From: Octopus vulgaris | Lineage: Eukaryota | Length of the DNA: 64,000 bases | Direction of reading: 5' to 3' | Assembly: GCA_951406725.2 (NCBI GenBank) | Contig: OX597825.1 | Location: 86,986,001-87,050,000, forward strand | Shown: positions 4,987 through 57,938 of the stretch, piece after piece | How the letters are laid out: each line of letters starts with the position of its first letter | Position numbering within the stretch: position 1 is the stretch's first letter | Notes under the pieces: generated by a model | Database searches by the model: none | The model's input: only the letters and a program-made list of their open reading frames with translations | What the model was told of the DNA's origin: nothing | Made by a program: the position numbers and the translations under genes

Positions 4987-5266
4987 TTATTGTATGGAAA
5001 GTGTTCTGCGTAGGATGTGTGCAGTGCCTAGTAGTGCAATTTTCTGTATGTTATATGTGTTTGTAAGTCCTGGTGTTTTTGTTATGTATTTGTCTGAATA
5101 TTTTTTTATCATGCCTAATGCACCTACTATGATAGGAATTGTTTCTGTTTTCAGGTTCCACATTCTAGTTACCTCTATTTCCAGGTCTTTGTATTTTGAG
5201 AGTTTCTCCATTTCTTTTAGAGACACGTTGTCATCTGCCGGTATTGATACATCAATTAGAAAGCAT
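4987..5266 (-). CDS. C-terminal RLE endonuclease segment of the same ORF, after a 1-bp frameshift
   Basis: CFLIDVSIPADDNVSLKEMEKLSKYKDL...IPIIVGALG...ILRRTL* continues the PD-(D/E)xK domain. The shift is at the T7 run 5266-5272. Confidence 0.85.
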
Positions 5267-7214
5267 TTTTTTCTTCATGATCTCTGACAACTATATCTGG
5301 TCTGTTGGCCTTAATTTCTCTATCTGTGTGTATCGGCATATCCCACAGTATGGTTGCTTTCTCGTTTTCTGTTACCTTTTCTGGTGTGTGCCTATACCAT
5401 CTTTTTTCTGTTGTTATTCCATAATGTTGGCATAGCTTCCAATGTATGTAGGTTCCAACTCTGTCATGTCTGTGAATATATTCCTTCTTAGCCAGGACTG
5501 GGCAGCTAGAGATAATATGATTTATTGTTTCTTGTCCATCTCCACATATTCTGCAGTTACTTGTAATATTTCTTTTCATTAAATGTTTTTGGTAATTTCT
5601 GGTGGGGAGGCTTTGGTCTTGTGCTGCAATTAAAAATCCCTCTGTCTCTGCTTTGAGTCCTGAGCTTCTCAACCATTGCTGGGATTTTTCTTTGTCTATT
5701 TCTTTTGCGTTTAGTTTAGTGCAGTATTTACCATGAAGGGGCTTTTCTTGCCATCGTTTTATCATGGCTCGTTGCTGTTCTATTTTTAGTTTGGATTTCA
5801 TTTGTTTTATAGCTTTTGTTGTTTCTTCATCATCTTCTTCTTCTTCTTTGTGTTTATTAGGTGGTATGATTTCTTGTTTGTATTTGTCAGCTTCCTTAAA
5901 TACTGAGAACAGTTTTTTGTTTTGCTCGTGTTTTGCCGCTATTTGTATCAGATTTCCTTCCTTCTGAAGTAGATATTTTTGCAGTCCTATGGTGGTTATT
6001 TTATAGTAGTTTTCCAGCTGTATAAGGCCTCTACCACCTTCTATACGTTGTATATATAGTCTTTCTATGTCAGATTTTGGGTGATGCATCCTAGATCCTG
6101 TCAGTATTTTTCTTGTTTTCCTATCTATTTTGGACAGTTCATTTCGTGTCCAGTTAAGGATATTGTAGCTGTAACTTATAACTGGGACAGCTAAAGTGTT
6201 GATACCTATTATCTTGTTTTTAGCATTGAGCTCTGTTTTTAGTATTGATCTAACTTGTCTATAATATTCTTTTTTTATTTTCTCTTTCATTTGTGTGTGT
6301 TGTGTCTTATCTAGTTCATGGATTCCTAAGTATTTGTAAGTTTGGCTTTGGTCTAATTCTTTTATTTCATTGGTTTTATCTAGTGTGATGTTGTTACTCT
6401 TAACTAGTTTTCCTCTTTTCATGGTTACTTTGGCGCATTTTTCTAATCCAAATTTCATATCTATTTCTTTGGTAAATCCATGAACTGTCTTTAATAGTGT
6501 TTCCAGCTGTTTGTCATTTGCAGCGTATAGTTTTAGGTCATCCATATATAAAAGGTGGCTGATCGTTTTGCCGTAACATTTATATCCGCATCCAGTTCTA
6601 TTTAGCATATCAGATAGAGGTGACAGTGCCAAGCAGAAAAGGAGTGGAGAGAGCGTGTCTCCCTGGAATATTCCTCTTCTAATGGGGATGTCTTTGGTTT
6701 TCATGAGTCCCTCTTTTGTTTGGAGGTGTAGGACTGTTTGCCATTTATTCATAGAGTGCTCTATGAATTTTATGATTGTTGGTGCTACTTTGCTAATGGC
6801 TAGTGTTTCGAGGATCCATGTGTGGGGGATGCTATCAAACGCCTTTTTGTAGTCAATCCAGGCCATACTGAGGCCTTTCTTCTTTCTGTGGCTGTCTTCA
6901 GTTATGGCTTTATTAATCATTAGTTGATCTTTACAGCCATATGAGCCTTTGCGGCATCCTTTCTGCTCTTCTGGGAACAGTTTGTTTTCGTCCAGGTGCT
7001 TGTTTAGCCTTTGTGATATCACTGCAGTAAATGCCTTGAACATAGTAGGGAGGCAGGTTATTGGTCTGTAGTTTTCTGGTTTTTCTGTTTCATTTGATTT
7101 GGGAATTAAGATGGTTTTCCCCTTCGTGAGCCATTCAGGCATTGTCTCTGGCTCTGCTAGTATGCTGTTAAAGTTTTCAGCCAGCTTTTTGTGCATTCCT
7201 GTTAAATATTTCAA
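5256..7214 (-). CDS. Retrotransposon polyprotein, main open segment: reverse transcriptase, CCHC zinc knuckle, start of RLE endonuclease
   Basis: Motifs YRPITCL, WIDYKKAFDSIPH, GIFQGDTLSPLLF, HLLYMDDLKLY, YKYLG, GGRGL, CRICGDGQETINHIISSC, RHD and NRPDIVV. The frame extends upstream (WKAPGHDKIPNFW) to a TGA at ~7305. Confidence 0.92.
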   Translation of the reverse strand: MKYLTGMHKKLAENFNSILAEPETMPEWLTKGKTILIPKSNETEKPENYRPITCLPTMFKAFTAVISQRLNKHLDENKLFPEEQKGCRKGSYGCKDQLMINKAITEDSHRKKKGLSMAWIDYKKAFDSIPHTWILETLAISKVAPTIIKFIEHSMNKWQTVLHLQTKEGLMKTKDIPIRRGIFQGDTLSPLLFCLALSPLSDMLNRTGCGYKCYGKTISHLLYMDDLKLYAANDKQLETLLKTVHGFTKEIDMKFGLEKCAKVTMKRGKLVKSNNITLDKTNEIKELDQSQTYKYLGIHELDKTQHTQMKEKIKKEYYRQVRSILKTELNAKNKIIGINTLAVPVISYSYNILNWTRNELSKIDRKTRKILTGSRMHHPKSDIERLYIQRIEGGRGLIQLENYYKITTIGLQKYLLQKEGNLIQIAAKHEQNKKLFSVFKEADKYKQEIIPPNKHKEEEEDDEETTKAIKQMKSKLKIEQQRAMIKRWQEKPLHGKYCTKLNAKEIDKEKSQQWLRSSGLKAETEGFLIAAQDQSLPTRNYQKHLMKRNITSNCRICGDGQETINHIISSCPVLAKKEYIHRHDRVGTYIHWKLCQHYGITTEKRWYRHTPEKVTENEKATILWDMPIHTDREIKANRPDIVVRDHEEKNAF

Positions 7215-7525
7215 CCAGAAGTTGGGGATCTTGTCATGCCCAGGTGCCTTCCAGTTGCTTAGTCTTTGCAGTGCCTGGGTGACCTCTTCAGTTGTTATGG
7301 GGGTTCAAAGTTGTTCAGATGCCGAGTTTGTTATTGTGATACTCCTTTTTTTTGGTGGTTCGTTCGCCGACCATATTTCTCCCAGAATTCTTCCAATTCT
7401 TCTGCCGTTGGTGCTGCAGTAACTTCTATTTTATTTTTGCCCAGTTCTTGGTAGAACTTTTGCCCAGTTCTTGGTAGAACTTTTTGGGGTCGGAGTTGAA
7501 CTTTTTGTTCTGTTTTGTTTTGTTC

Positions 7526-8271: not shown

Positions 8272-9045
8272 GTATAACCTACCACAGCTGCATGGGATGG
8301 AATGCACGCAGTCTTTGGTCATACTCTCTTCTATTCTCGAAGGAGATATTTGCGAAGTATTGTATTACTCTTGAATACTGTCCTGATGTCATATGGGCCG
8401 CATATCTTTTGTATCTTTTCGGAGAGCTTTTTCCCATAGGGTAGACAGGCCGTGGTCAGTTTATGGCTTTCATCCTCTCTTTTCTACATAATTGGAGTGG
8501 ATAGTATGTTTTTGGGGATTGTTGTTGCTTAATAGATTGTTACTTAGCTTGATCATTTCTTCGTGGTGTGTTTCAGGATCACTGCTTATATTCTTTGCAC
8601 GATGTTTTAGGCACTGAGCAATCCCTCTCTTTACACTGTACGGATGGCGAGAATTGAAGTTGTGGTATCGTCCAGTGAAGTTTGGCTTGCAGTATACGGA
8701 TGTCCTGGATCCATACTTGGTGCGTGTTATTAATACGTCCAGGAATGCTAGCTGATTGTCTTTTTCCTTTTCCATTGTGAACTGTATGGATGGCTTTATT
8801 GAGTTCACATGATCTAACAGCACTTGGACATCTTCCTGGTGGGGCCAGAGGATAATGGTGTCATCAACATATCGCAGCCTTAGTGTTGCTTTTAGTGGTG
8901 TTGATCCTAAAACCAAATTCTCAAAGTATTCCATGTATATATTGGTTATTATCAATGATAATGGCAAACCTATAGCTAAACCCTCTTCCTGTCGATATAT
9001 ATCAATATCCATTCTGAAGTAGGTAGTTTCTACACAGAAGATCAA
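8272..9045 (-). mobile_element. Penelope-like element fragment (RT C-terminal half, linker, start of GIY-YIG nuclease), pseudogenised
   Basis: ORF 8470-9117 has YRQEEGLAIGLPLS, RYVDD, IQFTMEKE, LAFLDV, VYCKP and HPYSVKRG. Downstream in shifted frames are LPY, SEKIQKICGPYDIRTVFKSN and DCVHSIPCSCGRLY. Confidence 0.88.
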
Positions 9046-9358
9046 CAAACAAGATGAAGAGAAATATCCGTCAAATGTAAATAATGTAAATAACGTAATG
9101 TTATACAAATCCGACAATCCTGTTTAGCCGTACAAGATGTTTGTATATATTATAGATGCATTAAACTGCTTATATATTCATGGAGACATGATGGCTAATG
9201 TTTGATTAGTGGTGGCCTCAGAAGACATAAAACTATGATAATGCATTTTCCGTCTGCAGAGAATAAAAATCTGTGGTGTGCCTTAAATTTGACATTGAAG
9301 CTAAACCCATATTTTCATTGCAAAAAATAGAAACAGAATATGATATACGTTAAAAATA

Positions 9359-27192: not shown

Positions 27193-27227
<35 letters not shown>

Positions 27228-27256
27228 CGAGAATGAAGCAACAAGAATGGATAGGT

Positions 27257-27347
27257 TTTTAGTACAATCGTTTCATACAAGGACAGGTTTTATTAAAAGT
27301 TGCAAAAATTACAGCATATAAACGTGTCCCGTACTCATCAGCTAAAA
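27257..27347 (-). ncRNA. Type I hammerhead ribozyme with 60-nt stem II domain, canonical core
   Basis: TTTTAG-CTGATGA-GTACGGGACA...TGTCCTTGTAT-GAAA-CGATT-GTA-CTAAAA. Stem I is 6/6, the stem II base is ~10 bp, stem III is near-palindromic ACGATTGT, and the triplet is GUA. Confidence 0.8.
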
Positions 27348-27531
27348 TACATGTGAGTTCTCTAGACATCCTAGTGGTTGAGGCTATACTCATGAAGTAA
27401 TGTAGATAATTAAGTAACATATTAGGTACCATATTCAAGTAAATTCATTTAAATTAACTTGAATCTTTATTGCTTTTTGTATATATATATATATATATAT
27501 CAAAATAAGCAACAGAGATATCCAGAGGTAA

Positions 27532-27618
27532 TGCAGTACGATCGTTTCATACAAATCCATTTAATTGAACAATGCAATCATTACATCAATTTAAAATGCA
27601 GAGCAATCCTCAGCTGCA
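27532..27618 (-). ncRNA. Type I hammerhead ribozyme with 58-nt stem II domain
   Basis: TGCAG-CTGAGGA-[TTGC...TTTAAATTGA TGTAAT g ATTGCA..TCAATTAAA...GTAT]-GAAA-CGATC-GTA-CTGCA. Stem I is 5/5, stem III is the perfect palindrome ACGATCGT, and the first stem II pair is U-U. Confidence 0.75.
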
Positions 27619-28631
27619 CAGAGACATAGAATTTAATTAGATTAGAACAGATGGACACATTAGTATAATTACACCTAAAATCTCCAAGAAGTTAAGGAGA
27701 CAGAAAAGAACATGCTGTCTCAACTCCAGCATAGAAGTTATCACGAAGATATACATTGTTACAGACTCTGCCTGATTTTTTTTTGTTTTTATGAGTGCAG
27801 TTTTAATTTATAGACTAGTTTATCAAATCCTTGTATATCTAAGGTTGAGAGATGGAGGGAAGTATCTGTTAGGGGTAGGGCTGAGGGAGCAGACAGACAT
27901 CATTGTTGGTATAGTCAAGATTTATTAGAAGCAATATCATCAGGTTTGATAAAGGAATACTAAAAACAAGATGTTAGCTGACAATTAAGGGGGTCGCCCA
28001 CTAGCAGACCACTGATAATGAAGCAGGGGAAGTCTTATGATGTGGTACTATAGTAAAATATTTTATACAATGTTGCTATATTGTATACAGTTAAAGTTTA
28101 GGGTTATTTAGAGGATTATTAAGAAGAATATTCTAACAAAAGGATAGAAATTTATGAATACTTATGAGTATATACCAAGCTTCTATCACAATAGAGAGAC
28201 GAAAAGAAATTATCCAGAAATAGTTTAATATTTATACATATTGTACACTTAAATACTAACTCATCAGATGGTATCTGTGAATATTGATTAATTGGTATAA
28301 ACTGGTATTTATAAAGGAGTATTGAGGTACAGGAACATGCAAATTATATATTAATGAAATTATAATCTAAGCAGTTCCTTATAAGTAGTGAATATACAAG
28401 TATAGTTTTATATAAGCTAAGTATGAATTTATAGAGATACAAAAATTAGATTAATTTTATAAATAAATATATATATATATACATACATATATATATATGT
28501 ATATATGTATATAATATATATATATGTATATATGTATATAATATATATATATATATGTATATATGTATGTTTTTAATAGGTCAATATATTTATTAATTTG
28601 CACAAGAAAAAGACAGTGAATTCGAAGTTAT

Positions 28632-56664: not shown

Positions 56665-56912
56665 AATAAAATAACGATTTTATCAAGTGGTCAGCATGGA
56701 GAAAATAACCTTCAAATGTAATAATTATTAAAATTATAAATTAGGGTATCTACAAGGTACCACCATGCTGAAAATAGCAGCCATGATCTGACTCTAAAAT
56801 CACCTTAATTGTCCATATATTAACACGGATAGAAACAAGATGAAACTAGGAAAAAATTACTGGATAATTCTAGGAATGCTTTGCCTCGTCAGTAGAATAC
56901 ACAGAAGAGAAT
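56665..56912 (-). mobile_element. Hammerhead-bearing module, copy 2 (GAAA/stem III deleted)
   Basis: Aligns to 36514-36795 but lacks about 27 nt spanning ATCCCGGATTTCTGAC. Confidence 0.8.
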
Positions 56913-57091
56913 TATATATATATAATGAAAGCAAAACAAAATGGTGATATTTTAAAATCATTCAATACTTAAGTTTCAGGTGAAGGCAATACATGTATAA
57001 AATAGGAAATGCATTTATTATGTTAATGTGCGTCAGGTAAAGTGTTTCGAAAGTTCTTGTACTGTGCAACACCTCTTAGCGCTACACGATA

Positions 57092-57747: not shown

Positions 57748-57938
57748 TATAATTTCAACAATTGAGAGTAAAATTAATTAAATATTAATCAATTTCACCA
57801 AATATTCAGTATGTAAAGGGACCATTTAAGGCGAATTCAAATTATTTTGAATTCGCCTTAAATGTCCCTTTACATACTGAATACTTGGTGAAATTGATTA
57901 ATAATTAATTAATTTTACCCTCAATTGTTGAAATTATA
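57748..57938. repeat. 191-bp near-perfect palindrome (arms ~94 bp, 4-nt spacer)
   Basis: TATAATTTCAACAATTGAG...TAAGGCGAATTCAAA-ttat-TTTGAATTCGCCTTA...CTCAATTGTTGAAATTATA, with about 3 substitutions and a 1-nt indel. Confidence 0.95.

What the first reader, a model, noticed from the sequence alone, without database searches (positions are those of the whole stretch)
27226..27620. Tandem pair of related hammerheads with compensatory stem I changes
Seen: two modules in the same orientation ~275 bp apart, separated by (TA)n. Both begin AAGCAACA..., and both share AGTAC(A/G)ATCGTTTCATACAA on the + strand. Their stem I differs completely but pairs in both (UUUUAG/CUAAAA versus UGCAG/CUGCA), and both stem II inserts are 58-60 nt foldbacks with different sequence. 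Inference: this is direct covariation evidence of selection for the fold. A read-through minus-strand transcript would place two ribozymes with compatible palindromic stem III (ACGAUCGU/ACGAUUGU) in cis. That is the geometry needed for dimeric cleavage and could release a ~275-nt unit able to circularise.
Basis: partly seen in the sequence, partly recalled or inferred. Interest (0 to 1): 0.75.

Follow-up and report, generated by a model that had tools for sequence, protein, structure and literature searches.

The report
Two Penelope retrotransposon ends, chance neighbours
The two hammerhead-shaped motifs are real, but they are end-pieces of two different, common Penelope-type jumping genes that sit side by side only once in this genome, likely because both insert into TA repeats, and their different stems are predicted to stop them cutting as a pair.

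Summary
Both type I hammerhead motifs are there (minus strand, predicted cuts 274 nt apart). They are not one unit. Module 1 (27226-27480) is a tiny 5'-inverted insertion of a young Penelope-like element (PLE) family, F1: 814 exact core matches, intact 953-aa RT/GIY-YIG ORF with Hydra-clade motifs. Module 2 is the end of an older, decaying copy (27502-28457) of a sister family, F2 (1,415 matches; RT 65% identical). The junction occurs once in 2.8 Gb. The 274-nt 'unit' is a four-piece chimera that includes an antisense piece. Stem I covariation is real, but it lies between families (16 stem types tested), not in this locus; F2 copies decay at the neutral rate. In a double hammerhead stem I must pair across partners (inferred from geometry), and the cross-stems are only 2-3 bp, so a cis dimer is predicted to gain about 1 kcal/mol, against 11-15 for same-family dimers. 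PLE hammerheads and an octopus Hydra family are published, and this scan found such PLE ends on other DNA of this genome. What remains of interest: ~120-nt tails, 57-60-nt stem II, and a testable 'stem I family code'.

The parts
27195..27225 (.). (TA)n run at the left end of the F1 insertion; likely target repeat
   Evidence: 40 of 40 free F1 ends listed abut TA runs (read by eye)
27226..27421 (-). Inverted piece of the F1 pseudo-LTR (196 nt), ending at F1 end A, about 35-41 nt past the predicted cut
   Evidence: 100% identical to the pLTR of full-length copy L061 and to the matching part of L003-L030
27257..27347 (-). HHR1, type I hammerhead: stem I UUUUAG/CUAAAA, core 27341-27335, 60-nt stem II, palindrome ACGAUUGU, predicted cut after 27263
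   Evidence: 814 exact matches to its core pattern
27422..27480 (+). Last 59 nt of the ~120-nt F1 tail, in the orientation opposite to HHR1; ends at F1 end B. In the full element this sequence lies downstream of the hammerhead and upstream of the ORF start
   Evidence: contigs of 3 of 4 runs join 27226 to 27422 on opposite strands, the native order
27481..27501 (.). (TA)10 between the F1 tail end and the F2 end; likely the other half of the target repeat
   Evidence: junction found once in the genome
27502..28457 (-). 5'-truncated copy of family F2 (3' UTR and pLTR, no ORF), tail-less end at 27502
   Evidence: 89-92% identity of 27502-27780 to the 39 other main matches listed; 83-88% further right; L127 links this pLTR to an RT-EN ORF
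27531..27619 (-). HHR2, type I hammerhead: stem I GUGCAG/CUGCAU, core 27613-27607, 58-nt stem II with private changes at 27551 and 27555, palindrome ACGAUCGU, predicted cut after 27537
   Evidence: this variant 24 matches, family form 1,415; nearly all laid contig depth shows the family letters
28458..28568 (.). (TA)n run at the right end of the F2 copy
   Evidence: other copies run on beyond this point

Best explanation
The two hammerhead motifs belong to the terminal repeats of two different Penelope-like retrotransposon families, and they likely became neighbours because a young F1 fragment inserted into the TA repeat beside an older F2 fragment. Shown: F1 full-length unit = pLTR with HHR, ~120-nt tail, ORF (RT, C-terminal GIY-YIG), long 3' UTR, pLTR; 4,866 nt from hammerhead to hammerhead. 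Shown: F1 insertions have two fixed ends, A (about 35-41 nt past the cut) and B (about 155 nt), and inverted pairs carry one of each. Inferred: the endonuclease cuts both strands of (TA)n, each DNA end primes reverse transcription at one of two internal RNA sites, and the two cDNAs are joined head to head. Here the B-primed cDNA stopped after 59 nt and the A-primed one after 196 nt. Inferred: each hammerhead works in its own family's RNA, probably slowly and as a same-family dimer through the palindromic stem III, to cut pLTR-to-pLTR transcripts. Selection acts on transposing lineages, which gives covariation between families, while inserted copies decay. The pair at this locus likely has no joint function.
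For: Independent occurrence: among the 60 loci, only the two that are the window itself hold both modules; 814 F1 and 1,415 F2 pattern matches; junction 1 match each in two patterns. Autonomous parents: L065 has an open 980-codon frame, 953 aa from Met, with RWK 37, DKT 124, QFDI 259, PMGS 322, YRDD 355, CxCx5C 814, VIY 833/YIG 848, CxxC 911, CxH 941; L061 has 933-bp direct pLTRs and an inverted copy; L127 shows the same plan for F2, RT 65% identical to F1. Ends: 42 F1 hammerhead copies listed, 15 end at A, 25 at or near B, 2 run into the ORF; 13 of 13 loci with two free ends have one A and one B. 36 of 38 neighbouring pairs within 6 kb among the first 100 listed F1 matches are inverted. Age: F1 piece 100% identical to dispersed copies, F2 copy 89-92%. 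Density: 13,796 long-stem-II hammerhead patterns against 40 in the reversed control, so about 10 same-strand pairs within 300 bp are expected under uniform placement. Cross stem I 3 bp and 2 bp; double-hammerhead gain -0.9 kcal/mol against -10.6 (HHR1 pair) and -14.8 (HHR2 pair).
Against: For this exact pair and order (F2 just upstream of F1) uniform placement expects only 0.06, so the explanation needs (TA)n targeting or a preference for existing PLE ends. The empty site was not seen, so the order of insertion is inferred from divergence. The ORF has no Pfam match and no PDB sequence match; its identity rests on motifs compared with PMC8557442, with no tree. In the cis RNA the constrained double-monomer and heterodimer folds are equal (-68.4, -67.6 kcal/mol) and both lie about 18 above the unconstrained minimum (-86.2), so the model says that neither is favoured, not that cutting is impossible. 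All loci were ranked with a query holding the tail, so A+A pairs would be under-sampled.
Confidence: 0.9

Rival explanations
1. Accidental but active unit: a read-through RNA, started in the F2 pLTR or upstream, is cut at both hammerheads (each as a slow monomer or with a same-family RNA in trans), and the 274-nt piece is closed by a host RtcB-type ligase. It would be a by-product circle, not a mobile element.
For: Both cores are intact and on one strand. pLTRs hold promoters that transcribe downstream PLEs (PMC6765202 passage). RtcB circularises retrozyme monomers far better than the ribozyme does (PMC7229834 passages). The two palindromes can pair (-7.9 kcal/mol).
Against: PLE hammerheads cut poorly in vitro, and a single S. 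mansoni motif did not cut detectably (PMC4209133). The ligated junction would rebuild a hammerhead with a 3-bp stem I, so it would not renew itself. HHR2 has weakened stem II (-8.8 against -12.1 kcal/mol in L036). No second genomic copy of the unit.
Confidence: 0.07
2. One reading: a selected tandem pair that cleaves as a cis heterodimer and releases a retrozyme-like circle.
For: Same strand, 274 nt spacing within the 170-400 nt range of animal retrozymes (PMC7229834 abstract passage); compatible palindromes.
Against: The unit is a chimera of F2 end, (TA)10, antisense F1 tail and F1 pLTR. It is unique in the genome. Tandem Repeats Finder finds no repeat of the unit. Cross stems I are 2-3 bp. 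F2 copies show no constraint on the core.
Confidence: 0.02
3. Assembly artefact joining two repeats through TA runs.
For: Both joins lie in TA runs, and no contig or 33 bridges them (the tool skips these repeats).
Against: Module 1 has the normal anatomy of an F1 insertion with correct A and B ends; L002 shows the same mini-inversion with a different internal join.
Confidence: 0.01

Closest known systems
Hydra-clade Penelope-like elements (Craig et al. 2021, PMC8557442; includes Hydra-1_Obim of Octopus bimaculoides, File S1/S2)
   Same: RWK and DKT motifs, CxCx5C linker, C-terminal GIY-YIG without CCHH, CxxC and CxH near the C end, type I hammerhead in the pLTR, (TA)n insertion, tandem and inverted copies. 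F2's U before and after stem II (CUGANGAU...UGAA) matches listed Hydra motifs such as Penelope-1_HM.
   Different: Unit 4,866 nt against generally under 3 kb; Asn-rich stretch between RT and EN (30% N in residues 481-810); stem II 57-60 nt against short stems and loops in the 26 Hydra rows of File S2 seen; tail ~120 nt against 30-40 bp. The listed Hydra-1_oBim hammerhead differs in sequence from both HHR1 and HHR2, so these look like other families.
Poseidon_Ac of the green anole (Frangieh et al. 2024, PMC11167929)
   Same: Two internal start sites of reverse transcription downstream of the hammerhead explain a tail found at one end only; AT-rich target cut on both strands.
   Different: There the starts lie inside the ORF and are not homologous to the target. 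Here both ends lie upstream of the ORF, about 120 nt apart, and the RNA just beyond each end is TA-like (UUAUA, AAUAUAU), which would allow short pairing with the nicked (TA)n (inference).
Metazoan non-LTR retrozymes (Cervera and de la Pena 2020, PMC7229834; Li et al. 2026, 10.64898/2026.07.22.740005)
   Same: Type I hammerheads a few hundred bases apart on one strand; pLTR-related sequence.
   Different: Retrozymes are repeats of one unit with the same ribozyme at both ends. Here the two ribozymes come from two families and the unit is single.
PLE hammerheads that need dimers (Cervera and de la Pena 2014, PMC4209133)
   Same: Short palindromic helix III; many families per genome with compensatory changes; single motifs from truncated copies; pairs 100-700 bp apart on opposite strands.
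   Different: Much longer helix II here; the paper's parts that I read do not treat dimers between different families.

Membership tests
Type I hammerhead ribozyme | Core CUGANGA, GAAA, UH with helices I-III closing in stem I | tested here: met
   6-bp stem I in both; position 10.1-11.1 is G-U in HHR1 and U/U in HHR2
Type I hammerhead ribozyme | Match to an Rfam hammerhead model | tested here: inconclusive
   no hammerhead family listed (150 of 217 rows shown; 16 of 16 rows); long stem II probably defeats the models
Type I hammerhead ribozyme | Self-cleavage | not testable with these tools
   needs an in vitro assay
EN+ Penelope-like element | Single ORF with PLE-type RT and GIY-YIG endonuclease | tested here: met
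   953-aa ORF in L065, by motifs; no Pfam or PDB hit
EN+ Penelope-like element | Pseudo-LTRs holding the hammerhead; tandem and inverted, 5'-truncated insertions; tail at one end | tested here: met
   L061 933-bp direct repeats plus inverted copy; ends A and B; F2 in L127
Hydra clade | RWK motif, DKG changed to DKT | tested here: met
   RWK 37, DKT 124 in F1; ADKTGN also in F2
Hydra clade | C-terminal EN without CCHH; CxCx5C linker; CxxC and CxH beside the conserved E and N | tested here: met
   CKCRIKSKC 814; one Cys between VIY and YIG; CQLC 911; CVH 941
Hydra clade | Insertion into (TA)n | tested here: met
   40 of 40 free F1 ends; 21 of 30 sampled motifs have (TA)4 close downstream
Hydra clade | Grouping with published Hydra RTs in a tree | not tested
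   published proteins were not available as stored sequences; no tree built
Non-LTR retrozyme | At least two consecutive copies of one unit, each with a complete hammerhead (definition in Li et al. 2026) | tested here: not met
   the two modules align only over about 56 nt at 75%; no tandem array
Non-LTR retrozyme | Unit spread as a family of copies | tested here: not met
   junction found once
Non-LTR retrozyme | Abundant linear and circular monomer RNA | not testable with these tools
   only contigs of runs of guessed kind were available

The most novel reading that the evidence does not exclude
Stem I is a family code. The palindromic stem III of these PLE hammerheads can pair across families, but a double hammerhead swaps the stem I strands, so only RNAs of the same family can cut each other. 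The fast, compensated turnover of stem I among at least 16 types in a genome with about 13,800 such motifs would then keep co-resident retroelement families from cleaving one another, and this locus is a ready-made natural test of it.
Probability: 0.3. Interest if true: 0.5.

Novelty: new member of a known kind. Interest (0 to 1): 0.22.

Why it matters
As a tandem ribozyme unit the finding is ordinary: two PLE ends in one microsatellite. It does lead to a very young, probably still active Hydra-clade PLE with intact ORFs, two sharply fixed insertion ends about 120 nt apart and an unusually long stem II. That is a clean system for two open questions named in PMC8557442 and PMC11167929: how PLEs make inverted insertions with a tail, and what their hammerheads do. 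The family-code idea would be a simple form of self-recognition among ribozymes and needs only a four-way mixing assay.

Tried and rejected
Rfam, whole window and local: only microsatellite-driven miRNA matches. Pfam and PDB sequence search of the F1 ORF: nothing. ESM Atlas: not available. Sequencing runs: no RNA holder listed; runs of guessed kind only. Four DNA-like and four RNA-guessed runs were laid: all are contigs, TA runs are skipped, so neither the empty site nor read-through could be tested; no joint between 27263 and 27537 was listed (one search showed 15 of 21 joints, one search showed its one), which says nothing about expression or circles. A host gene: none recognised among 66 frames of 110 aa or more; small exons would be missed. 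My first F2 pattern used this copy's own variant and gave 24 matches; the family form gave 1,415. Domestication of HHR2: rejected, 6 private differences in the ~140 columns compared, 2 of them in stem II. Lunse et al. 2016/2017 on dimeric PLE hammerheads is not held, so prior work on cross-family dimers may be missed. One search for hammerhead + heterodimer + retrotransposon + stem I found 0 papers; one for Penelope-like + tail + twin priming found 2 papers on other elements, seen as listings only. Supplements of the bioRxiv preprint are closed and could list related elements; only 1 of 59 parts of the PMC8557442 supplement was read, plus one term search.

Full report
1. Observation. On the minus strand two type I hammerhead motifs are present as described. 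HHR2 has its core at 27613-27607, a 58-nt stem II, palindrome ACGAUCGU and a predicted cut after 27537. HHR1 has its core at 27341-27335, a 60-nt stem II, ACGAUUGU and a predicted cut after 27263. Each has a 6-bp stem I. A strict scan finds 4 such motifs in the window and none in 60 of 60 Markov sequences of the same length. Rfam lists no hammerhead here. The genome is 2.8 Gb in 227 contigs and rich in simple repeats; earlier notes of this scan call it an octopus, which I did not test.

2. Each module is a common repeat. The search with module 1 gave 1,251 candidates; of the 40 scored, most match 27226-27421 at 100% on other chromosomes, with 27422-27480 matching separately and in the opposite orientation about 60 bases away. 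The search with module 2 gave 2,684 candidates; the 39 other main matches listed are 89-92% identical. Of the 60 loci fetched, only the two that are the window itself hold both modules. Exact patterns count 814 matches for the HHR1 core and 1,415 for the family form of HHR2, with 0 in the reversed controls. Two patterns for the junction each match once, at this place.

3. Module 1 belongs to a young autonomous PLE, F1. L065 has an open frame of 980 codons, 953 aa from the first Met, and one search lists many more copies at 95-100% with long open frames. The motifs are RWK, DKT, QFDI, PMGS, YRDD, CKCRIKSKC, VIY...YIG with a single Cys between, CQLC and CVH. These are the marks of the Hydra clade in PMC8557442 (passages). 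L061 shows an inverted copy, a 933-bp pLTR, the ORF, a long 3' UTR and a second pLTR; its hammerheads are 4,866 nt apart. In the native order the hammerhead is followed by about 155 nt and then, about 55 nt later, by the start codon. Against this copy the window's module is 196 nt of pLTR on the minus strand joined to the last 59 nt of the tail on the plus strand. Contigs of 3 of 4 public runs join 27226 to 27422 on opposite strands, which is the native order. So module 1 is a minimal inverted insertion, and HHR1 lies in its inverted part.

4. Insertion ends. Of 42 F1 hammerhead copies listed in L001-L030, 15 stop 35-41 nt past the cut (end A), 25 stop at or near end B (about 155 nt) and 2 run into the ORF. 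All 40 free ends abut TA runs, and 13 of 13 loci with two free ends have one A and one B (the query held the tail, so A+A pairs would be under-sampled). Among the first 100 of 814 places listed, 36 of 38 neighbours within 6 kb are inverted. F2 has the same two classes of end: 18 of 30 short, 12 of 30 with tails of about 85-120 nt (by eye). PMC8557442 describes inverted copies and a 30-40-bp tail at one end. PMC11167929 (parts 1-2 of 4) ties the tail to two internal start sites of reverse transcription. I infer the same here, with one target strand priming at each site.

5. Module 2 is the end of an older family, F2. The copy runs from 27502 to about 28457, has TA runs on both sides and no ORF. 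L127 links this pLTR to a broken RT-EN frame, 65% identical to F1 over 426 residues, with an inverted pLTR in front and a tailed pLTR behind. The window copy differs from its family at 6 columns of the hammerhead region, two of them in stem II (27551, 27555), which lifts the stem from -12.1 (L036) to -8.8 kcal/mol; laid contigs carry the family letters there. In 29 copies (L033 dropped as a duplicate of L032) the core differs at 7 of 348 sites and the unconstrained columns at 76 of 3,335 (p = 1.0); 7 copies have a core lesion and 7 have stem I changes, none of them compensated. These are the best BLAST matches and the test has little power, but it shows no constraint on inserted copies.

6. 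Covariation. A pattern that leaves stem I free matches 13,796 places, against 40 for the control. In the first 30 on contig C1, 19 have a cognate stem I of 4 bp or more. Among 16 representatives with different 5' arms, 8 of 16 cognate stems reach 4 bp (mean 3.9) against 17 of 240 cross pairs (mean 1.1); 0 of 20,000 permutations reach the observed sum; position 1.1 is G-C 9, C-G 4, U-A 3. Relatedness was not corrected for. So the fold is kept across families, as PMC4209133 (parts 1-2 of 4) reported for PLE hammerheads in general.

7. The dimer. A double hammerhead forms by merging the two stems III (PMC6466107 and PMC6155905 passages). From the geometry I infer that each active site then takes its cleavage triplet and 3' stem I arm from the partner; no passage I read says so outright. 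The palindromes of HHR1 and HHR2 pair well (-7.9 kcal/mol), but the cross stems I give 3 bp and 2 bp. The dimer fold gains -10.6 (HHR1 pair), -14.8 (HHR2 pair) and only -0.9 kcal/mol for the mixed pair. In the real cis RNA both constrained folds lie about 18 kcal/mol above the minimum. These are nearest-neighbour estimates without tertiary contacts or protein; the PAc hammerhead needed its protein to cut.

8. Why they are adjacent. Uniform placement already expects about 10 same-strand pairs within 300 bp and 1.2 for F1 with any motif, though only 0.06 for this pair in this order. Both families end in TA runs, so each insertion leaves targets at its own ends, and PMC6765202 (passage) says PLEs tend to insert next to existing copies. 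The identical F1 piece likely split the TA run beside the older F2 end. The empty site could not be checked.

9. Comparison and novelty. PLE hammerheads, their dimer requirement, Hydra-clade elements in (TA)n and an octopus Hydra family are published; PMC13282606 (passages) counts 31 recently active Penelope-like families in O. vulgaris. Earlier notes of this scan describe the same kind of truncated, head-to-head PLE ends on other DNA of this genome; none matches this sequence. The locus fails the retrozyme definition in Li et al. 2026 (part 1 of 5) and PMC7229834 (passages). F1 and F2 look like unlisted Hydra families, with a longer unit, tail and stem II than those published. Verdict: observation confirmed, tandem-unit reading not supported, new members of a known kind, interest 0.22.

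Noticed in passing
window 57529-57480 (-): Third type I hammerhead (CUGACGA, 31-nt stem II, palindrome ACGUACGU, stem I UUUGAG/CUCAAA) inside a TA-flanked insert with a 192-bp inverted repeat at about 57748-57938; related to a stretch in L013.
   Followed up: partly
window 36773 (-): Fourth hammerhead-like motif (CUGACGA, palindrome AUCCGGGAU); its surroundings are 79% like window 56666-56924 and 89% like an inverted pair in L116.
   Followed up: partly
L061:3446-3610; window 27226 and 27480: The RNA just beyond both F1 ends is TA-like (UUAUA after end A, AAUAUAU after end B), and the tail is about 120 nt, three to four times the published 30-40 bp.
   Followed up: partly
L065:2707-5565: F1 protein has a long Asn-rich stretch (30% N in residues 481-810) between RT and endonuclease; open frames of related copies range from about 840 to 1,200 codons.
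   Followed up: no
window 27237-27244 and 27508-27515: UUGUUGCUU about 20 nt past the cut is shared by F1, F2 and several other subfamilies whose stem I differs; it lies just before end A and may be a protein-binding or priming signal.
   Followed up: no
L062:3992-4963: A second GIY-YIG-like frame (37% to the F1 endonuclease) of another family lies about 450 bases from the end of an F1 inverted pair, another case of PLE pieces side by side.
   Followed up: no
window 5256-7304 (-): 682-codon open frame of a non-LTR retrotransposon RT with C-terminal CCHC and RPD motifs (R4/Dong-like by recall).
   Followed up: no
window 8470-9123 (-): 217-codon RT fragment (GLPLS, RYVDD) that resembles another PLE clade by recall.
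   Followed up: no
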